A stretch of DNA of 51,114 bases from Candidatus Fimenecus sp. (GTDB lineage: Bacteria > Bacillota > Clostridia > Oscillospirales > Acutalibacteraceae). The DNA lies in NCBI GenBank assembly GCA_045631075.1, contig JAZQUC010000017.1, positions 1 through 51,114 on the forward strand, given 5' to 3'. Both the position numbers and the translations under genes were made by a program. Under the pieces are notes generated by a model. It made no database searches. It saw only the letters and a program-made list of their open reading frames with translations, and was not told where the DNA came from. Numbering within the stretch: the first letter of the stretch is position 1; the number at the start of each line of letters is the position of its first letter. Below are positions 20,266 through 48,669 of this stretch, piece by piece.

Positions 20266-20315
20266 GAGCCTCCCTTGTCAAAGGGAGGGGGACCGCGACA
20301 GCGGTGGAGGGATTC
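20266..20315 (+). repeat. GC-rich two-hairpin element (single arm) immediately after the araD stop
   Basis: GCCTCCCTT-GTCA-AAGGGAGG, then ACCGC-GACA-GCGGT, then GGAGGGATTC. Near-identical to the reverse complement of the right arm of 2531-2673. Confidence 0.8.
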
Positions 20316-20356
20316 AAAAAAACGGATATTCCATTCTTGGAATATCCGTTTTTTTA
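20316..20356. terminator. Bidirectional intrinsic terminator between araD and the convergent permease gene
   Basis: AAAAAAA-CGGATATTCCA-TTCT-TGGAATATCCG-TTTTTTT. Confidence 0.85.
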
Positions 20357-20359
20357 TGT

Positions 20360-21466
20360 TTATTTAATTATTAACCATAATCCTAAATTTAATATTAAGA
20401 ACACAATATTCATAATTGTGAATGTCAGTATATACTTCGCTGTACTGACTTTTTCTTTTGCAATAAACTTAAATGAGATAAGACTTGCCATTGATGCAAT
20501 TAAAGTACCAAGTCCACCAAGGTTTACACCAATAAGTAAATCTCGTGCATTTTCAGTAAATTTTGAAAGAAGAATTGCTGCAGGAACATTTGAAAATACC
20601 TGACTTGAAACAACACCAACAATAACCTCATTGTCATTTACTATGCTTTTCAAAAAGTCACTGATAGGCTTAATTTCACCAAGATTTCCGATGAAAATGA
20701 ACAAAAATGTAAAAGTGAGAAGTAAACTGTAATCAACTTTTGTTATCACATTTCTGTTAAAAATAAGTAAAGCAATAACAGTAATAATTACAGTTGCAAT
20801 ATATGGAATAACACGAAAAACAGTTAACAATGAAAGAATAAATAAAACAGCAAAAATTACAATATGTAATTTTGAAAAAGTGTATTTATCTTCTGTTGAA
20901 CCTGATTTGATTTCACCTTTTCTGGTTATAAAGCAAGATATAATAACAAGAACAAGCGATAACAAAGCATAGGGGAGTATTGTAACTAAAAAATCATTCA
21001 TATTCATGTTGAATGCAGAGAATAAATATAAATTCTGTGGATTGCCGATAGGTGTCAGCATGCTTCCAAGGTTTGCAGCTATAGTTTCAACAGTCACAAT
21101 CCATATAAGCTTATCTGTTTTACCGGATAATTTTAATGCAGTAATTGTAAAAGGCACAAATGTAATCAGAGCCACATCATTAGTAATAATCATTGATGAA
21201 AAGAAACAAAGCAATCCTAATATAAGAGAAAGTCCAGAAATGCTTTTTACTTTTGAAAGCATCTTTTTTGCTATGAATTTAAAAACACCCATATTGTTAA
21301 GTCCTGCCATAACAGCCATAAGGCAAAATAACAGACCTAATGTTCTGAAATCAATATATTCCAGGTATTCTTTGTTTGGCGTAACAAAAAACGCTGAAAC
21401 CACTGCAAGAACAAAAGATAATATGAGCACAATTTCATTTTTTATAAATTCTTTAACTTTAAGCAT
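20360..21466 (-). CDS. YbiR/ArsB-NhaD-superfamily anion permease
   Basis: Polytopic protein. ITNDVALITFVPFT and ANLGSMLTPIGNPQNLYLF motifs. The real start is MLKVKEF at 21466 (RBS AGGTGG). The tracked ORF runs further upstream through the tRNA. Confidence 0.8.
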   Translation of the reverse strand: MLKVKEFIKNEIVLILSFVLAVVSAFFVTPNKEYLEYIDFRTLGLLFCLMAVMAGLNNMGVFKFIAKKMLSKVKSISGLSLILGLLCFFSSMIITNDVALITFVPFTITALKLSGKTDKLIWIVTVETIAANLGSMLTPIGNPQNLYLFSAFNMNMNDFLVTILPYALLSLVLVIISCFITRKGEIKSGSTEDKYTFSKLHIVIFAVLFILSLLTVFRVIPYIATVIITVIALLIFNRNVITKVDYSLLLTFTFLFIFIGNLGEIKPISDFLKSIVNDNEVIVGVVSSQVFSNVPAAILLSKFTENARDLLIGVNLGGLGTLIASMASLISFKFIAKEKVSTAKYILTFTIMNIVFLILNLGLWLIIK

Positions 21467-21517: not shown

Positions 21518-21609
21518 TGGCGGAGATGAAGAGATTTGAACTCTTGCGCCGCTATTCACGACCTACCGCATTTCGAGTGCGGACCCTTCAACCACTTGGG
21601 TACATCTCC
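21518..21609 (-). tRNA. tRNA-Ser (anticodon CGA) with encoded CCA
   Basis: The reverse complement folds as a cloverleaf: acceptor GGAGATG/CATCTCC, anticodon arm CCGCA-CTCGAAA-TGCGG, long variable arm, T arm AAGAG-TTCAAAT-CTCTT, and 3' GCCA. Confidence 0.9.
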
Positions 21610-29604: not shown

Positions 29605-29657
29605 TTATAGTTGAAGTACATATAATAATCAAAAGACATTAAAAGGATGTGATTGTT

Positions 29658-30629
29658 ATGTGTACTTCTGTTTCTTTTTTGACGAAGGAACACTACTTTG
29701 GCAGAACACTTGATATGGAAATCTCTTATAATGAAAAAGTGATAATAACGCCTAGAAATTTCAATTTGAAATTTAGATTATCAAATGATTTGAATAATCA
29801 TTATGCTATTATTGGAATGGGTATAGTGGTTGATAATTACCCGTTGTATTATGATGCAACCAATGAAAAAGGATTGTCGGTTGCAGGGTTAAATTTTCCC
29901 GTAACAGCAAGGTACAATGAGCCTGTAAATGACAAAAATAATATTGGTGTTTTTGAATTGATACCATGGATATTAGGAAATTGTTCATCTGTTGATGAAA
30001 CTCGTGAATTGCTTACCGAAACCAATATTATCAATATAGATTTTAACGAAAAATATAAATCAGCACAGCTTCATTGGATGATTTCTGACAGAGATTATTC
30101 CATTGTTCTTGAATGCACAGAAAATGGTATGAAAATTTATTATAATCCCGTTCATATTCTTACAAATAATCCTGAATTTCCTTTGCAGGTATTTAATATT
30201 AATAATTTTATGAATATTACTCGTGAAGAGCCTGAAACACGGTTTGCAGAAGGCTTTGACCTAAATAAATACAGCAGGGGAATGGGCGCTATTGGTTTGC
30301 CAGGTGATTTGTCATCAATGTCACGATTTGTCCGAGCATCATTTACAAGATTAAATTCAGTTTGTGGAAACACAGAAAGTGAGAGTATAAGTCAGTTTTT
30401 TCATATACTTGATACCGTTTCACAGACAAATGGTTGCGTCAGAGTTGGCGATAGCTTCGAAAAAACAGTGTACACTTCTTGTTGCAATACAGACAAAGGA
30501 ATTTATTATTATAAAACTTATAATAATAGTCAAATTTCAGCAGTAGATTTGTATCGTGAAAATCTTGACAGAAATGATTTGATATTATATAATCTCGTTG
30601 ATGAACAACAAATAAAATTTTATAATTAA
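29658..30629 (+). CDS. Choloylglycine hydrolase family protein (bile salt hydrolase / penicillin V acylase type Ntn hydrolase)
   Basis: Met-Cys start (MCTSVSF..HYFGRTLD), with the Ntn nucleophile Cys2. NEKGL..AGLNFP and later conserved blocks. About 323 aa. Confidence 0.88.
   Translation: MCTSVSFLTKEHYFGRTLDMEISYNEKVIITPRNFNLKFRLSNDLNNHYAIIGMGIVVDNYPLYYDATNEKGLSVAGLNFPVTARYNEPVNDKNNIGVFELIPWILGNCSSVDETRELLTETNIINIDFNEKYKSAQLHWMISDRDYSIVLECTENGMKIYYNPVHILTNNPEFPLQVFNINNFMNITREEPETRFAEGFDLNKYSRGMGAIGLPGDLSSMSRFVRASFTRLNSVCGNTESESISQFFHILDTVSQTNGCVRVGDSFEKTVYTSCCNTDKGIYYYKTYNNSQISAVDLYRENLDRNDLILYNLVDEQQIKFYN
30565..30593 (+). promoter_or_regulatory. Perfect consensus promoter TTGACA-17-TATAAT inside the 3' end of the hydrolase gene
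   Basis: TTGACA 30565-30570, 17-nt spacer, TATAAT 30588-30593. Confidence 0.6.
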
Positions 30630-30726
30630 ATATACTGCCACCGGGTAGTGTGATGCAAAGCATCCATTTGATACATCGTTAGGTCTTTGAAGATGTATCA
30701 GTGGGTGTTATTTTTATGAGGTTTTT
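30600..30726 (+). promoter_or_regulatory. pnuC leader with terminator-type hairpin abutting the RBS (candidate attenuator/riboswitch)
   Basis: Small hairpin GATGC-AAA-GCATC. A 10-12 bp stem pairs CCATTTGATACATC (30664-30677) with GATGTATCAGTGGG (30692-30705). TGTTATTTTTA follows, running into GAGG and ATG 30727. Confidence 0.4.
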
Positions 30727-31413
30727 ATGAAAAAGATACTTAATTATTTTACAAAATTTGAAATCGGACTTTGGTCTGTATCTGTCTTGTTAATTATTAT
30801 TTCATTTTTTATGCTTAAACAAACTGATTACCTAACTCTTTCAGCCTCTTTAATAGGTGCAACATTCTTAATTTTCAATGCAAAAGGAAATCCTATTGGT
30901 CAATTTTTAACAATTATATTCAGCTTACTTTATGGAATTATTTCATATAGATTTTCATATTACGGTGAAATGATTACATACCTTGGAATGTCAATGCCTA
31001 TGGCATTTCTTGCACTTGTTTCATGGCTTAAAAATCCTTACAAAAACAAATCTCAAGTTAAAGTGAATAGGCTAAAAAGAAAAGAAACTATTTTAATGTT
31101 CCTGTTGACAGGCATAGTAACTGTTATTTTCTATTTTATTTTAAAGCATTTCAATACTGCAAATCTTATTCAAAGTACTATTTCGGTAACAACCAGTTTT
31201 TTAGCTGTTTATCTCACATTCAGACGAAGTCCGTATTTTGCTCTTGCATATGCTTTGAACGACTTGGTATTGATTGTTTTGTGGGTGTTGGCAAGTATTA
31301 CTGACATTACATACATTTCTGTTGTCATATGTTTTATTGTATTCTTTGTGAATGATTTGTATAGTTTTGTAAATTGGAAGAAAATGGAGAAAAATCAAAA
31401 ATTAAATATGTAA
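30727..31413 (+). CDS. pnuC: Nicotinamide riboside transporter PnuC family
   Basis: 228 aa with about 7 TM segments. Characteristic L..A.G....Q...I..S..Y....Y....YGE and W.KN blocks. Confidence 0.85.
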   Translation: MKKILNYFTKFEIGLWSVSVLLIIISFFMLKQTDYLTLSASLIGATFLIFNAKGNPIGQFLTIIFSLLYGIISYRFSYYGEMITYLGMSMPMAFLALVSWLKNPYKNKSQVKVNRLKRKETILMFLLTGIVTVIFYFILKHFNTANLIQSTISVTTSFLAVYLTFRRSPYFALAYALNDLVLIVLWVLASITDITYISVVICFIVFFVNDLYSFVNWKKMEKNQKLNM

Positions 31414-31441
31414 AAAGCCGATGATTATCATCGGCTTTTTA
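31412..31441. terminator. Bidirectional terminator between pnuC and the convergent lipoprotein gene
   Basis: AAAAA-GCCGATGA-TTA-TCATCGGC-TTTTT. Confidence 0.85.
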
Positions 31442-31444
31442 CTT

Positions 31445-31765
31445 TTACTTGGTCATATCTTTAAAACCTTTTCCAATGCCGTTTGCAACATCTGATGCTG
31501 CCTCACCAACACCACCAATTACATTTGATGCTGCTTCACCAACATTATCTGCAAGGTTACTTGCACCATCACCGATATCAGTAGCAGCATTATTAGTTGT
31601 ACTGTCATTTCGTGTTGTACTTGTCGAACTGCTTTGGTTTGTTGTTGAAGTTGAACTCTGGTTGTTGTCACTTGTTACTTTTCCGTCTTCAGGATTACTG
31701 CATCCCGTCATAAATACACTGAGTAACGCAATAACAACAAGTGAAATAATAATTACTTTTTTCAT
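31445..31765 (-). CDS. Small lipoprotein with Ser/Thr/Asn-rich linker and GEAAS.V repeats
   Basis: Signal peptide with lipobox (FMTGC). Low-complexity linker. Repeated NVGEAASNVIGGVGEAASDVANGIG tail. GGAGG-type RBS. Confidence 0.6.
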   Translation of the reverse strand: MKKVIIISLVVIALLSVFMTGCSNPEDGKVTSDNNQSSTSTTNQSSSTSTTRNDSTTNNAATDIGDGASNLADNVGEAASNVIGGVGEAASDVANGIGKGFKDMTK

Positions 31766-43441: not shown

Positions 43442-43770
43442 ATGAGTAAATTGGGCAGTTGCGTAAGTGTTTACTTGTGAGGAAAGTCCGAGCATCATAC
43501 AGCAGGGTAACGGCTAACAGCCGCCGAGGGTGACCTTAGGGAAAGTGCATAGAGAATAACCGCCGTTTTTACGGTAAGGGTGGAAAGGCGAGGTAAGAGC
43601 TCACCAGCGTTGCAGAGATGTAACGGCTGAGCAAACCCTACCCGATGCAACATCGACTGGAGTTGTCAGCTGGGCAGATACTCCGAAAGATGGCTTCAGG
43701 TATGTGGCAACACATATCGCAGATAGATAATTGCCTTAAACGACAGAACTCGGCTTACAGATTTACTCAT
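43442..43770 (+). ncRNA. rnpB: RNase P RNA (bacterial; class-A-like features)
   Basis: The P4 strands GAGGAAAGTCCG (43479-43490) and ACAGAACTCGGCTTAC are present. GGTAAGGGTGGAAAGGCGAGGTAAGAGCTCACC resembles the class A P10-P12 region. P1 is formed by TGAGTAAAT / ATTTACTCA. Confidence 0.9.
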
Positions 43771-43775
43771 TTTTA

Positions 43776-47825: not shown

Positions 47826-47861
47826 TTTGTCAGGTGTATAATGTAATCAAGCCAAGTAAAT

Positions 47862-47955
47862 ATAGTTATGGGTGCTGACGGGTAAGTCGGCTGAGATTGA
47901 GGGTAATCCACCTCTGACCATTGAACCTGATACGGATAATGCCGGCGTAGGAAAT
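47862..47955 (+). promoter_or_regulatory. TPP (THI-box) riboswitch aptamer
   Basis: GGGTGCTG...GGCTGAGA...ACC..TGAACCTGATACGGATAATGCCGGCGTAGGAA matches the THI-element consensus. It lies upstream of a thiamine transporter gene. Confidence 0.9.
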
Positions 47956-47957
47956 TT

Positions 47958-47996
47958 TCATTCAGCCTTGCGGTATTCCTTGGCTGAATTTTTTAT
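47958..47996 (+). terminator. Expression-platform terminator of the TPP riboswitch
   Basis: ATTCAGCC ... GGCTGAAT stem followed by TTTTTT, just upstream of the thiT RBS (GGAGG). Confidence 0.8.
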
Positions 47997-48012: not shown

Positions 48013-48669
48013 ATGAAAAAGAAAAATCTATATTGGTTGGTAGAAAGTGCAGTTATGATTGCACTTGCAGCAGTTCTTGAACTTGTTGCAAAAATGGTAA
48101 TACCCGAAATGCCATTCGGTGGACAGGTTACAATAGTAAGTATGTTACCTATTGTGCTTGTTGGTTGGAAATATGGTATTGGAAAAGGTATTGTTACAGG
48201 TTTTGTTTATTCACTTGTACAGATGGCTTTGGGTGTAAAGACAATAAGCAGTCTTATTTTACCTTCATCTGATGACTATCTTGGTGGCCTTGGCAACATT
48301 GTATTGATGTTTATTTTTGATTATATTGTTGCTTATACTGTACTTGGCCTTGGTGCAATATATAAACAAAGAATCAGGAATAACAGCGTATCTCTTACTT
48401 TAGGTGCATTCACAGTTTTAACACTGCGATACATTTCACATATTATTTCAGGCTATATTCTTTATGGTGCATGGGCAGAATGGTTTTTTACACAGGAAGG
48501 TTTCTACTCATGGGGACAAACAATAATGAATACATATACAGGAAATGCTCTTTCTCTTGTTTACTCGATAATATATAACGGATTTTATATGATTCCAGAA
48601 ATTATTATCACAACTGTCGTCGCGGTAATTATAGGCAAAATTCCTCAAATCACAAAGGTTAAAAATTAA
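48013..48669 (+). CDS. thiT: Thiamine transporter ThiT (ECF S-component)
   Basis: 218 aa with 6 TM segments. The N-terminus E.AVMIALA.VL and the preceding TPP riboswitch support the call. Confidence 0.85.
   Translation: MKKKNLYWLVESAVMIALAAVLELVAKMVIPEMPFGGQVTIVSMLPIVLVGWKYGIGKGIVTGFVYSLVQMALGVKTISSLILPSSDDYLGGLGNIVLMFIFDYIVAYTVLGLGAIYKQRIRNNSVSLTLGAFTVLTLRYISHIISGYILYGAWAEWFFTQEGFYSWGQTIMNTYTGNALSLVYSIIYNGFYMIPEIIITTVVAVIIGKIPQITKVKN

What the first reader, a model, noticed from the sequence alone, without database searches (positions are those of the whole stretch)
30565..30726. Perfect consensus promoter inside the hydrolase gene feeding a terminator-containing pnuC leader
TTGACA-17-TATAAT (6/6 and 6/6 with optimal spacing) lies in the last 65 nt of the choloylglycine-hydrolase-family gene. 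Transcripts from it would carry a ~125-nt leader. In that leader, a 10-12 bp hairpin (30664-30705) is followed by a T-rich run ending 2-3 nt before the pnuC Shine-Dalgarno. There is no room for another promoter downstream of the hairpin. pnuC expression must therefore depend on read-through, which is the layout of a riboswitch or attenuator. Known pnuC-linked RNA elements exist (the NAD+-II or pnuC motif in streptococci), and Pnu-family genes are found behind TPP and FMN riboswitches. I cannot match this leader to any of them. The GATGC-AAA-GCATC hairpin (part of TGTGATGCAAAGCATCCA) could alternatively be a protein operator.
Basis: partly seen in the sequence, partly recalled or inferred. Interest (0 to 1): 0.7.

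Follow-up and report, generated by a model that had tools for sequence, protein, structure and literature searches.

The report
Guanidine-IV riboswitch before PnuC-like transporter
The leader in front of the "pnuC" gene is an ordinary member of the known guanidine-IV riboswitch class, which lets transcription run through a terminator when guanidine is present, so the gene is probably a guanidine-related transporter and not a vitamin B3 importer.

Summary
A 12/12 TTGACA-17-TATAAT promoter (30565-30593) lies in the last codons of the choloylglycine-hydrolase gene. It is followed by a structured leader whose terminator abuts the Shine-Dalgarno of a PnuC-family gene. The leader (30634-30717) is not a new or NAD-related element. 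It is a canonical guanidine-IV riboswitch (mepA motif, GGAM-1; Lenkeit 2020, Salvail 2020). It has the P1 hairpin with the CC-ACCG-GG loop. It has a terminator hairpin whose 14-nt loop carries UAGGUC...GAAG, including the three bases whose mutation abolished guanidine binding in the validated Lactococcus lactis RNA. A U-run follows. 76 of 80 orthologous pnuC-like loci carry it, with strong covariation. The same core sits upstream of SugE, MATE, NimA-like, GNAT and EamA genes, which is essentially the published guanidine-IV gene set (PnuC-like is 25% of that class). It lacks the features seen in the three published Gd4v variant constructs. By analogy with tested members it is an ON switch: guanidine promotes a loop-loop pseudoknot that blocks completion of the terminator. 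The ligand family, the implied polarity and the operator alternative were wrong. Small extras: the embedded promoter is invariant at synonymous sites in 32 loci, and the transporter lacks both tryptophans of the PnuC ligand-binding motif.

The parts
30565..30570 (+). -35 hexamer TTGACA, embedded in codons Leu-Asp-(Arg) of the CBAH gene
   Evidence: 12 of 12 promoter. CTT GAC A is invariant in 32 distinct orthologous loci, including synonymous third positions.
30588..30593 (+). -10 hexamer TATAAT, embedded in codons Tyr-Asn. The predicted transcription start is near 30600 (inferred).
   Evidence: TAT is 32 of 32 and AAT is 31 of 32, while a neighbouring Asn codon and a neighbouring Leu codon vary.
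30598..30626 (+). Second promoter-like site, TTGATG-17-TATAAT (10 of 12). Its -35 is not conserved in relatives. Possibly a minor or accidental promoter.
   Evidence: the -35 positions are variable in orthologues.
30634..30649 (+). P1 hairpin ACUGCC-ACCG-GGUAGU, the 5' half of the split guanidine aptamer
   Evidence: The CUGCC/GGUAG core is nearly invariant. The basal pair covaries (AU 42, GU 7, GC 5, UA 5, CG 1). C-G to U-A is a double change in 3 loci. The same CC-ACCG-GG is in the validated 95 Lla RNA.
30640..30642 (+). ACC in the P1 loop, the proposed 5' strand of the ligand-dependent loop-loop pseudoknot
   Evidence: Complementarity to GGU at 30682-30684 read from the sequence. The pseudoknot between the two loops is described in PMC7736828 and the Salvail preprint. 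The bases are invariant here, so no covariation is available.
30652..30664 (+). Linker hairpin GAUGC-AAA-GCAUC. Its 3' arm (30660-30664) is also the start of the terminator 5' shoulder.
   Evidence: A linker hairpin overlapping the terminator 5' shoulder occurs in 156 of 165 distinct elements, with 63 different stem sequences. Mean z against shuffles is -1.4.
30660..30708 (+). Intrinsic terminator hairpin: lower stem 30660-30668/30700-30708, bulge 30669, upper stem 30670-30677/30692-30699
   Evidence: MFE; helix 95.6% paired, 11 of 17 pairs with changes on both sides. RNAalifold independently predicts it.
30678..30691 (+). Conserved terminator loop GUUAGGUCUUUGAA, the 3' half of the split aptamer. 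G30683, U30684 and G30689 correspond to Lla G66, U67 and G72.
   Evidence: TAGGTC.T.GAAGA is invariant in 71 leaders. G66C, U67A and G72C abolish guanidine-dependent modulation in 95 Lla; alignment.
30709..30717 (+). U-tract of the terminator (UAUUUUUAU)
30718..30729 (+). Shine-Dalgarno GAGG (30718-30721) and ATG start (30727-30729) of the regulated gene
30727..31413 (+). PnuC-family (PF04973) transporter gene, of the subfamily that is regulated by guanidine-IV riboswitches
   Evidence: In the alignment to 4QTN the WxxW(x)3N ligand motif is replaced by FALAYALN. F171, A174 and N178 are invariant in 21 orthologues.
31410..31442 (.). Bidirectional terminator that closes the pnuC-like transcription unit

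Best explanation
Bases 30634-30717 encode a canonical guanidine-IV riboswitch (mepA motif, GGAM-1). It controls, by transcription termination, a PnuC-family transporter gene.

Proposed sequence of events:
1. Transcription starts from the consensus promoter embedded in the last codons of the upstream CBAH gene. The start near 30600 is inferred. Read-through from that gene is also possible.
2. Without guanidine, the long hairpin 30660-30708 plus the U-tract terminates transcription a few bases before the Shine-Dalgarno.
3. With guanidine, the conserved P1 loop (ACCG) and the conserved terminator loop (UAGGUC...GAAG) form a ligand-stabilised loop-loop pseudoknot while the polymerase is still at the U-tract.
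4. The pseudoknot prevents the lower terminator stem from closing, so the polymerase reads into the gene. This is an ON switch.
5. The short linker hairpin (30652-30664) shares its 3' arm with the terminator's 5' shoulder. It probably helps hold that shoulder back during the decision window (inferred).

The regulated PnuC-like protein is therefore most likely a guanidine-related (detoxification) transporter and not a nicotinamide riboside importer. That last point is inferred; it was proposed in PMC7736828 and has not been tested.

Shown here: conserved sequence, structure, covariation, gene associations, and identity of the core to a validated member. Taken from the literature: guanidine binding, ON polarity and the pseudoknot mechanism. 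Inferred: that this copy behaves the same way, the transcription start site, the role of the linker hairpin, and the transporter's substrate.
For: (1) Core identity to a biochemically validated member. 95 Lla is ...ACUCC-ACCG-GGAGU...CAGUAGGUCUGAGAAG... The window is ACUGCC-ACCG-GGUAGU...CGUUAGGUCUUUGAAG. The three Lla positions whose mutation abolishes guanidine response (G66, U67, G72) are present here and invariant in 71 orthologous leaders.
(2) The architecture is as published: a P1 hairpin, a variable linker, then a terminator whose loop is highly conserved, then a U-run.
(3) Conservation and covariation on a plain MAFFT alignment: 96.1% of cells paired, 13 pairs with changes on both sides, covariation score 0.345 against 0.189 in shuffles (0 of 500 reach it), and 0.04-0.08 when the partners are slid. 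RNAalifold gives the same fold.
(4) 76 of 80 orthologous pnuC-like loci from many Clostridia genera carry it.
(5) Gene associations. A metagenome pattern scan, pooled with the 80 genome loci and the window, gave 195 motifs. 161 are followed by a PnuC-like gene. Most of the others with an identifiable product are followed by SMR/SugE, MatE, Pyridox_ox_2 (NimA-like), GNAT or EamA genes. The published set is SugE 31%, PnuC 25.2%, MATE 22.6%, NimA 10.5%, GNAT 2.5%.
(6) Not the Gd4v variant. There is no hairpin inside the terminator loop, and the loop has AGGUC, not the AGGUA of the three published Gd4v constructs. SugE-associated copies L107 and L123 share its P1 core and the UAGGUC/GAAG loop residues; L107's loop is identical throughout.
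(7) ON-switch behaviour and the kissing-loop mechanism are documented for the class.
(8) The promoter hexamers are invariant at synonymous sites in 32 distinct loci.
Against: No experiment on this copy or on any PnuC-associated copy was found. All binding and termination data are from sugE- or mepA-associated RNAs. The pseudoknot bases (ACC and GGU) are invariant in my set, so the tertiary pairing has no covariation support here, and only 3 Watson-Crick pairs are evident. Rfam 15 returned no match. However, it also returned nothing for the sugE-, MATE- and NimA-associated copies, so this is probably a gap in the library and not evidence against membership. A characterized Pnu family member (PnuT) works by facilitated diffusion (PMC5749112). 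Such a carrier would not obviously export a cation against a negative-inside potential, so the exporter role of the regulated gene is uncertain. The transcription start is only predicted.
Confidence: 0.9

Rival explanations
1. The element has the guanidine-IV fold but has diverged in specificity, like the Gd4v variant. It would sense another small molecule that is the true substrate of the PnuC-like transporter, for example a substituted guanidine or a nicotinamide-related compound.
For: PnuC-like genes are almost exclusive to class IV among guanidine riboswitches: 25.2% against 0.09% or less in classes I-III. No PnuC-associated representative has been tested biochemically. A precedent exists for a guanidine-IV-like RNA with another ligand. 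Validated class IV RNAs also respond, less effectively, to methyl- and aminoguanidine.
Against: The copies upstream of bona fide SugE genes (L107, L123) and MatE (L144) have the same P1 core and the same UAGGUC/GAAG loop residues as the window (L107 and L144 have an identical loop). No D2 hairpin is present. The loop has AGGUC, not AGGUA. All residues shown to be needed for guanidine binding are present.
Confidence: 0.05
2. The hairpin is only the intrinsic terminator of the upstream MFS-CBAH transcription unit, and pnuC is expressed by leaky read-through with no ligand sensing.
For: There is no other terminator between the CBAH stop (30629) and pnuC. The hairpin plus U-run is a competent terminator.
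Against: A plain terminator does not need an invariant 14-nt loop or an invariant upstream hairpin. Both are conserved across genera in which the upstream gene differs and a promoter sits in the intergenic region. The same element precedes unrelated genes.
Confidence: 0.02
3. The near-palindrome TGTGATGCAAAGCATCCA is the operator of a repressor protein such as NiaR or NrtR, which would control pnuC in response to niacin or NAD metabolites.
For: The arms GATGC/GCATC are palindromic. pnuC genes in other Firmicutes are NiaR-regulated (title and abstract of PMC5343564, listed).
Against: The sequence of this segment is the least conserved part of the leader. At least 63 different stem sequences occur and the loop length varies from 3 to more than 15 nt, yet a hairpin is kept and its 3' arm always overlaps the terminator shoulder. 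That is the signature of an RNA-level constraint, not of a DNA-binding site. It also lies about 50 nt downstream of the promoter.
Confidence: 0.01
4. It is a riboswitch for NAD+, NMN, NR, TPP or FMN, or a ribosome-mediated attenuator.
For: The Pfam and NCBIfam naming of the downstream gene.
Against: No match to any Rfam riboswitch family even at E up to 10, whereas the TPP riboswitch elsewhere in the window is found. No leader peptide ORF of 40 aa or more is listed that starts within the leader on the + strand. The transporter lacks the WxxW ligand motif. The associated gene set is the guanidine set.
Confidence: 0.01

Closest known systems
Guanidine-IV riboswitch (mepA motif, GGAM-1; Lenkeit et al. 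2020 NAR, PMC7736828; Salvail et al. 2020)
   Same: P1 hairpin with a CC-ACCG-GG loop. A terminator hairpin with a conserved UAGGUC...GAAG loop. A variable linker and a U-tract. Location immediately upstream of a PnuC-like gene (25% of the class). The same core upstream of SugE, MATE, NimA and GNAT genes. A gut Firmicutes host.
   Different: Nothing that defines the class differs. [quoted passage not shown] The linker folds into a small hairpin that overlaps the terminator shoulder; the L. lactis sequence also allows this, whereas Salvail describes the linker as possibly fully single-stranded. The promoter is embedded in the preceding coding sequence.
Gd4v motif (guanidine-IV variant with unknown ligand; Lenkeit et al. 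2022, PMC9788692)
   Same: The overall two-hairpin plus pseudoknot architecture, the CACCGG loop, a terminator, and enrichment in the gut.
   Different: [quoted passage not shown] Its three published constructs have AGGUA where the window has AGGUC. It is associated with transaminase genes and never with sugE. The window element has none of these features.
NAD+-II riboswitch (pnuC motif of Streptococcus; PMC7749635)
   Same: It is found upstream of PnuC-family genes.
   Different: It has an unrelated sequence and structure (an internal bulge plus a pseudoknot with the RBS) and is a translational OFF switch. The leader gives no Rfam match to it.
HMP-PP (thiS) riboswitch
   Same: Aptamer nucleotides are embedded in the loop region of an intrinsic terminator. 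Salvail et al. draw this analogy.
   Different: A different ligand and a different conserved sequence. It has no upstream P1 partner hairpin.
Guanidine-II (mini-ykkC) riboswitch
   Same: Two hairpins whose loops kiss on guanidine binding. It is an ON switch for guanidine-related transporter genes.
   Different: Guanidine-II has ACGR tetraloops and acts on translation. Here the loops are ACCG and a 14-nt loop, and control is by termination.

Membership tests
Guanidine-IV riboswitch (mepA/GGAM-1) | 5' hairpin (P1) with highly conserved loop nucleotides (CC-ACCG-GG) | tested here: met
   30634-30649. Identical loop and closing pairs to the validated 95 Lla RNA. Invariant in 71 leaders except for a compensated C-G to U-A change in 3.
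Guanidine-IV riboswitch (mepA/GGAM-1) | 3' hairpin that is a Rho-independent terminator, with a highly conserved loop (UAGGUC...GAAG) and a U-run | tested here: met
   30660-30717. Loop residues equivalent to Lla G66, U67 and G72 are present and invariant.
Guanidine-IV riboswitch (mepA/GGAM-1) | Pseudoknot (kissing interaction) between the P1 loop and the terminator loop | tested here: inconclusive
   ACC (30640-30642) and GGU (30682-30684) are complementary. Both are invariant in my set, so there is no covariation. The exact published pairs are in figures that are not held.
Guanidine-IV riboswitch (mepA/GGAM-1) | Association with the guanidine gene set (SugE, PnuC-like, MATE, NimA, GNAT) | tested here: met
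   Of 195 motifs, 161 precede a PnuC-like gene. Others precede SMR, MatE, Pyridox_ox_2, GNAT or EamA genes. This matches Supplementary Table S4 of PMC7736828.
Guanidine-IV riboswitch (mepA/GGAM-1) | Selective binding of guanidine and guanidine-dependent antitermination (ON switch) | not testable with these tools
   Known only for L. lactis, R. timonensis and C. botulinum representatives.
Guanidine-IV riboswitch (mepA/GGAM-1) | Match to a curated covariance model | tested here: inconclusive
   Rfam 15 gives no hit for the window. It also gives none for the sugE-, MATE- and NimA-associated copies L107, L123, L144 and L091. The library used apparently has no model that recognises this class.
Gd4v motif | [quoted passage not shown] | tested here: not met
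   The terminator loop is a 14-nt unpaired loop with no insertion in any of the 71 leaders. Gd4v constructs carry a 16-22 nt insert there.
Gd4v motif | D1: a G that is strictly conserved in sugE-associated guanidine-IV RNAs is replaced | tested here: not met
   The exact D1 position is only in a figure. However, the window's terminator loop is identical to that of the SugE-associated copy L107, and L123 shares all loop G positions. All G residues tested by mutation in Lla are present.
Gd4v motif | Association with PRK07324 transaminase genes, never with sugE | tested here: not met
   No transaminase was seen downstream of the motif among the 195 hits. SugE was seen.
NAD+-II (pnuC motif), NAD+-I, TPP and FMN riboswitches | Match to the family covariance model | tested here: not met
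   No hit at E up to 10 on the leader. The TPP model does find the window's real TPP riboswitch at 47858-47970.
PnuC nicotinamide riboside transporter (functional sense) | WxxW(x)3D/N ligand-binding motif in TM6 (PMC5749112) | tested here: not met
   In the alignment to 4QTN, QWALWIVVN aligns with YFALAYALN. Both Trp are replaced (F171, A174) and Asn178 is kept. These residues are invariant in 21 orthologues. Alignment confidence in this stretch is moderate.
Pnu transporter family (fold, Pfam PF04973) | Significant match to the family profile over its full length | tested here: met
   PF04973 E 5.4e-33, profile positions 2-175 of 175. TIGR01528 scores 69.5 bits against a cut-off of 42.45. 4QTN E 1.8e-14.

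The most novel reading that the evidence does not exclude
The PnuC-like proteins under guanidine-IV control form a functionally new branch of the Pnu (SWEET-like) family that moves guanidinium or a small guanidino compound instead of a B vitamin. The replacement of the ligand-binding WxxW(x)3N motif by an invariant FAxAYAxN(D) would mark the change of substrate. A characterized Pnu carrier (PnuT) is a uniporter, so this branch would need a different coupling mechanism to export a cation. Alternatively, it imports a guanidine-related compound for use. A secondary possibility is that the conserved linker hairpin is a true antiterminator element, which would make the class IV mechanism more conventional than currently described.
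Probability: 0.4. Interest if true: 0.5.

Novelty: already known. Interest (0 to 1): 0.2.

Why it matters
For annotation, this corrects a likely mis-call. The gene will be named "nicotinamide riboside/NMN transporter PnuC" by automated pipelines (TIGR01528 passes its cut-off). Its regulation places it in guanidine biology, and its ligand motif differs from that of characterized Pnu transporters.

For riboswitch biology, it is one more ordinary guanidine-IV representative from an uncultured gut Clostridia genus (Candidatus Fimenecus and relatives). Two modest additions come out of the work. First, there is comparative evidence that a sigma-70-type consensus promoter can be maintained inside the last codons of the preceding gene through selection on synonymous sites. 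Second, a linker hairpin competing with the terminator's 5' shoulder is present in about 95% of the elements collected.

The open question it points to, already raised in the literature, is what the PnuC-like transporters of this regulon actually carry.

Tried and rejected
- Rfam 15 cmscan of the leader at permissive thresholds, twice, and of the whole window. No riboswitch family matched the leader. I first read this as possible novelty. I rejected that reading once the same scan also failed on the sugE-, MATE- and NimA-associated copies and the literature supplied a validated sequence with the same core.
- NAD+-II/pnuC motif. The description in PMC8632094 shows a different architecture (internal bulge, RBS pseudoknot, Streptococcus). 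Rejected.
- Protein operator at GATGC-AAA-GCATC. Rejected because the sequence is variable while the pairing is kept.
- The second promoter at 30598-30626 as the main promoter. Its -35 is not conserved. It is kept only as a possible minor start.
- A second riboswitch copy in the window. The CM hit at 20290-20371 (22 bits) is an ordinary terminator without the conserved loops.
- Riboswitch further upstream in the four orthologous loci that lack it (L022, L050, L066, L079). None within 3 kb.
- Covariation for the loop-loop pseudoknot. This was impossible because both strands are invariant in my set, and the metagenome search pattern fixed them.
- A literature search for experimental work on PnuC-like guanidine transporters. 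Only the 2020 speculation was found.
- I did not use structure prediction or the large protein searches beyond one call, since they would not change the verdict.
Full report
**1. The observation**

- TTGACA-17-TATAAT lies at 30565-30593 with 12 of 12 matches. It is the only perfect match in the window. Chance expectation is 0.08, and 8 of 100 shuffles have at least one, so on its own it is only suggestive.
- It sits in the last 65 nt of ORF 29649-30629. That ORF is a choloylglycine-hydrolase/CBAH family protein (PF02275, E 9e-104; NF038245, 454 bits).
- The next gene, 30727-31413, is a PnuC-family protein (PF04973, E 5e-33; TIGR01528, 69.5 bits).
- The intervening RNA folds very stably: -38.1 kcal/mol, z = -4.76, 0 of 200 shuffles as stable.
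- The fold is a small 5' hairpin (30634-49) and a long hairpin (30660-30708) followed by UAUUUUUAU. GAGG (30718-21) and the ATG (30727) come directly after. There is indeed no space for another promoter.
- A weaker promoter-like site lies at 30598-30626.

**2. Is it conserved?**

A protein search showed thousands of close relatives of the transporter. I fetched 80 orthologous loci from species-representative genomes. They are Candidatus Fimenecus, Acutalibacteraceae, Ruminococcus, Blautia, Lachnospiraceae and other gut Clostridia.
- The upstream 170 nt showed that nearly all carry the same leader: CTGCCACCGGGTAG, a variable segment, ATCGTTAGGTCTT(T/A)GAAGAT flanked by covarying arms, and a T-run.
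- 76 of 80 loci have it. The four without it have none within 3 kb.
- On a plain MAFFT alignment of 71 distinct leaders (A2) I counted pairs for P1 plus the terminator. 96.1% of cells are paired, against 88.3% in shuffles. 13 pairs show changes on both sides. The covariation score is 0.345, against 0.189 in shuffles (0 of 500 reach it) and 0.04-0.08 for slid partners.
- RNAalifold independently predicts P1 and the terminator.
That criterion is clearly not met: this is a selected RNA structure.

**3. What it is**

Rfam 15 gave no match to any riboswitch family, so I looked for other gene contexts.
- A pattern made of the two invariant blocks was scanned against metagenome contigs.
- Pooled with the genome loci and the window, this gave 195 motifs. 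161 are followed by a PnuC-like gene.
- Most of the rest with an identifiable product are followed by SMR/SugE proteins (L107, L123), a MatE pump (L144), Pyridox_ox_2/NimA-like proteins (L091, L108, L111, L173), a GNAT (L154) and small EamA-type proteins (L113, L152, L155, L193). One representative of each class was confirmed with Pfam.

This is the characteristic gene set of the guanidine-IV riboswitch.
- Lenkeit et al. 2020 (PMC7736828) list the genes downstream of GGAM-1: SugE 31%, PnuC-like 25.2%, MATE 22.6%, NimA 10.5%, B3/B4 5%, GNAT 2.5%.
- They explicitly note that PnuC- and MATE-class genes are newly implicated in guanidine biology.
- Their validated L. lactis construct (95 Lla, Supplementary Table) reads ...ACUCC-ACCG-GGAGU-[linker hairpin]-GCAUUU-UCAGUAGGUCUGAGAAG-AAAUGU... 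The window reads ACUGCC-ACCG-GGUAGU-[linker hairpin]-...ACAUC-GUUAGGUCUUUGAA-GAUGU... (alignment A3).
- The Lla mutations G66C and U67A (in UAGGUC) and G72C (in GAGAAG) abolish the guanidine response in vitro and in vivo. The equivalent bases G30683, U30684 and G30689 are invariant in my 71 leaders.

The mepA/guanidine-IV motif was first reported in 2020 from a GC-IGR search. The Rfam copy available here finds nothing even in the sugE-, MATE- and NimA-associated copies. The Rfam negative therefore says nothing about membership.

**4. Canonical or variant?**

A guanidine-IV-like variant, Gd4v, with an unknown ligand exists and is enriched in gut metagenomes (PMC9788692).
- It is associated with a transaminase and never with sugE.
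- The three published Gd4v constructs have AGGUA followed by an inserted hairpin.
- The window has AGGUC, an uninterrupted 14-nt loop and no transaminase association.
- The SugE-associated copies L107 and L123 share its P1 core and the UAGGUC/GAAG loop residues, and L107's loop is identical throughout.

It is therefore the canonical class.

**5. How it most likely works**

For tested members, guanidine increases read-through of the terminator. EC50 is 260 uM for L. lactis and about 69 uM for C. botulinum, and a reporter was induced 80-fold.

The accepted model is a split aptamer. The P1 loop and the terminator loop form a guanidine-stabilised pseudoknot or kissing loop. This is sterically incompatible with closing the lower terminator stem during a narrow co-transcriptional window.

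In the window the candidate pairs are ACC 30640-42 with GGU 30682-84. I could not test them by covariation because they never vary.

One feature stands out in my data. The linker is not simply single-stranded. In 156 of 165 distinct elements it forms a small hairpin whose 3' arm is the terminator's 5' shoulder. There are 63 different stem sequences, and mean z against shuffles is -1.4. I read it as an RNA-level helper that delays closure of the terminator. This is inferred. It is not a protein operator.

**6. The promoter**

In the 32 distinct loci where the CBAH gene precedes the riboswitch, the hexamers are embedded in the codons Leu-Asp and Tyr-Asn.
- Their synonymous positions are frozen: CTT 32 of 32, GAC 32 of 32, TAT 32 of 32, AAT 31 of 32.
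- A nearby conserved Leu uses C or T at the first position 16:16 and all four third bases. A nearby Asn is AAT 26 and AAC 6.
- This supports a functional internal promoter with a start near 30600 (predicted).
- In other genera the promoter is intergenic and closer to P1.
- The 30598-30626 site is not conserved in its -35.
- There is no other terminator after the CBAH gene, so the riboswitch terminator also ends that transcription unit when guanidine is absent.

**7. The regulated gene**

The protein is a true Pnu-family member (4QTN, E 1.8e-14).
- The WxxW(x)3D/N motif contacts the ligand in PnuC and PnuT (PMC5749112). It aligns to YFALAYALN here. Both tryptophans are gone, and F171, A174 and N178 are invariant in 21 orthologues.
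- Together with ON regulation by guanidine, this argues against a nicotinamide riboside importer. It favours a guanidine-related transporter, as speculated in 2020. No experimental test was found.
- PnuT, the one Pnu transporter characterized mechanistically, is a facilitator that lets cations accumulate under a negative-inside potential. How such a protein would export guanidinium is unclear. This is the real open point.

**8. Verdict**

The ligand, polarity and operator ideas are wrong. The element is a plain member of a known, experimentally validated class in a known gene context. Novelty: already known. Interest is low, with a modest residual in the unresolved function of the PnuC-like transporters.

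Noticed in passing
window 47858-47970 (+) and ORF 48013-48669: A TPP riboswitch (RF00059, 58.1 bits) lies directly upstream of a ThiT/YuaJ-type thiamine transporter gene (PF09515). This is an ordinary arrangement.
   Followed up: partly
window 43443-43773 (+); 21521-21609 (-): RNase P RNA class A (255 bits) and a tRNA gene.
   Followed up: no
window 20290-20371 (+): A weak hit of my covariance model (22 bits). It is an ordinary intrinsic terminator (AAAAACGGATATTCC...GGAATATCCGTTTTT) preceded by a GC-rich hairpin, and it lacks the ACCG and UAGGUC core. It is not a riboswitch.
   Followed up: yes
window 30565-30593 and 32 orthologous loci (e.g. L001-L021, about 110-140 nt upstream of the pnuC-like start): Synonymous codon positions inside the -35 and -10 hexamers embedded in the CBAH gene are invariant (CTT, GAC, TAT, AAT), while neighbouring synonymous sites vary. 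This is evidence of selection for a promoter within coding sequence.
   Followed up: yes
window 30727-31413, residues 170-179 of the protein: The PnuC ligand-binding motif WxxW(x)3N is FALAYALN in this subfamily and is invariant in 21 orthologues. This suggests a substrate other than nicotinamide riboside.
   Followed up: partly
window 30652-30664 and 156 of 165 related elements: The linker between P1 and the terminator forms a hairpin whose 3' arm is the terminator's 5' shoulder. In two loci (L032, L075) the linker hairpin is absent and P1 abuts the terminator.
   Followed up: partly
L113, L152, L155, L193: The riboswitch core precedes a 141-aa EamA-type half-transporter (PF00892, E 1e-7 for the L113 product; the other three products are visibly similar). 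In these cases the 3' side of the terminator and the U-run look degenerate or absent, which suggests a different expression platform.
   Followed up: no
L022, L050, L066, L079: Four orthologous pnuC-like genes (67-72% identity) have no riboswitch within 3 kb. In L022 and L079 the gene overlaps the end of an upstream ORF, so it is probably co-transcribed with it.
   Followed up: partly
window 31410-31442: A perfect 15-bp bidirectional terminator lies between the pnuC-like gene and the convergent small Ser/Thr/Asn-rich putative lipoprotein ORF 31445-31765.
   Followed up: no
Rfam 15 library as provided: No family in the library recognises guanidine-IV/mepA RNAs, even sugE- and MATE-associated ones. 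Negative cmscan results for this class are therefore uninformative.
   Followed up: yes
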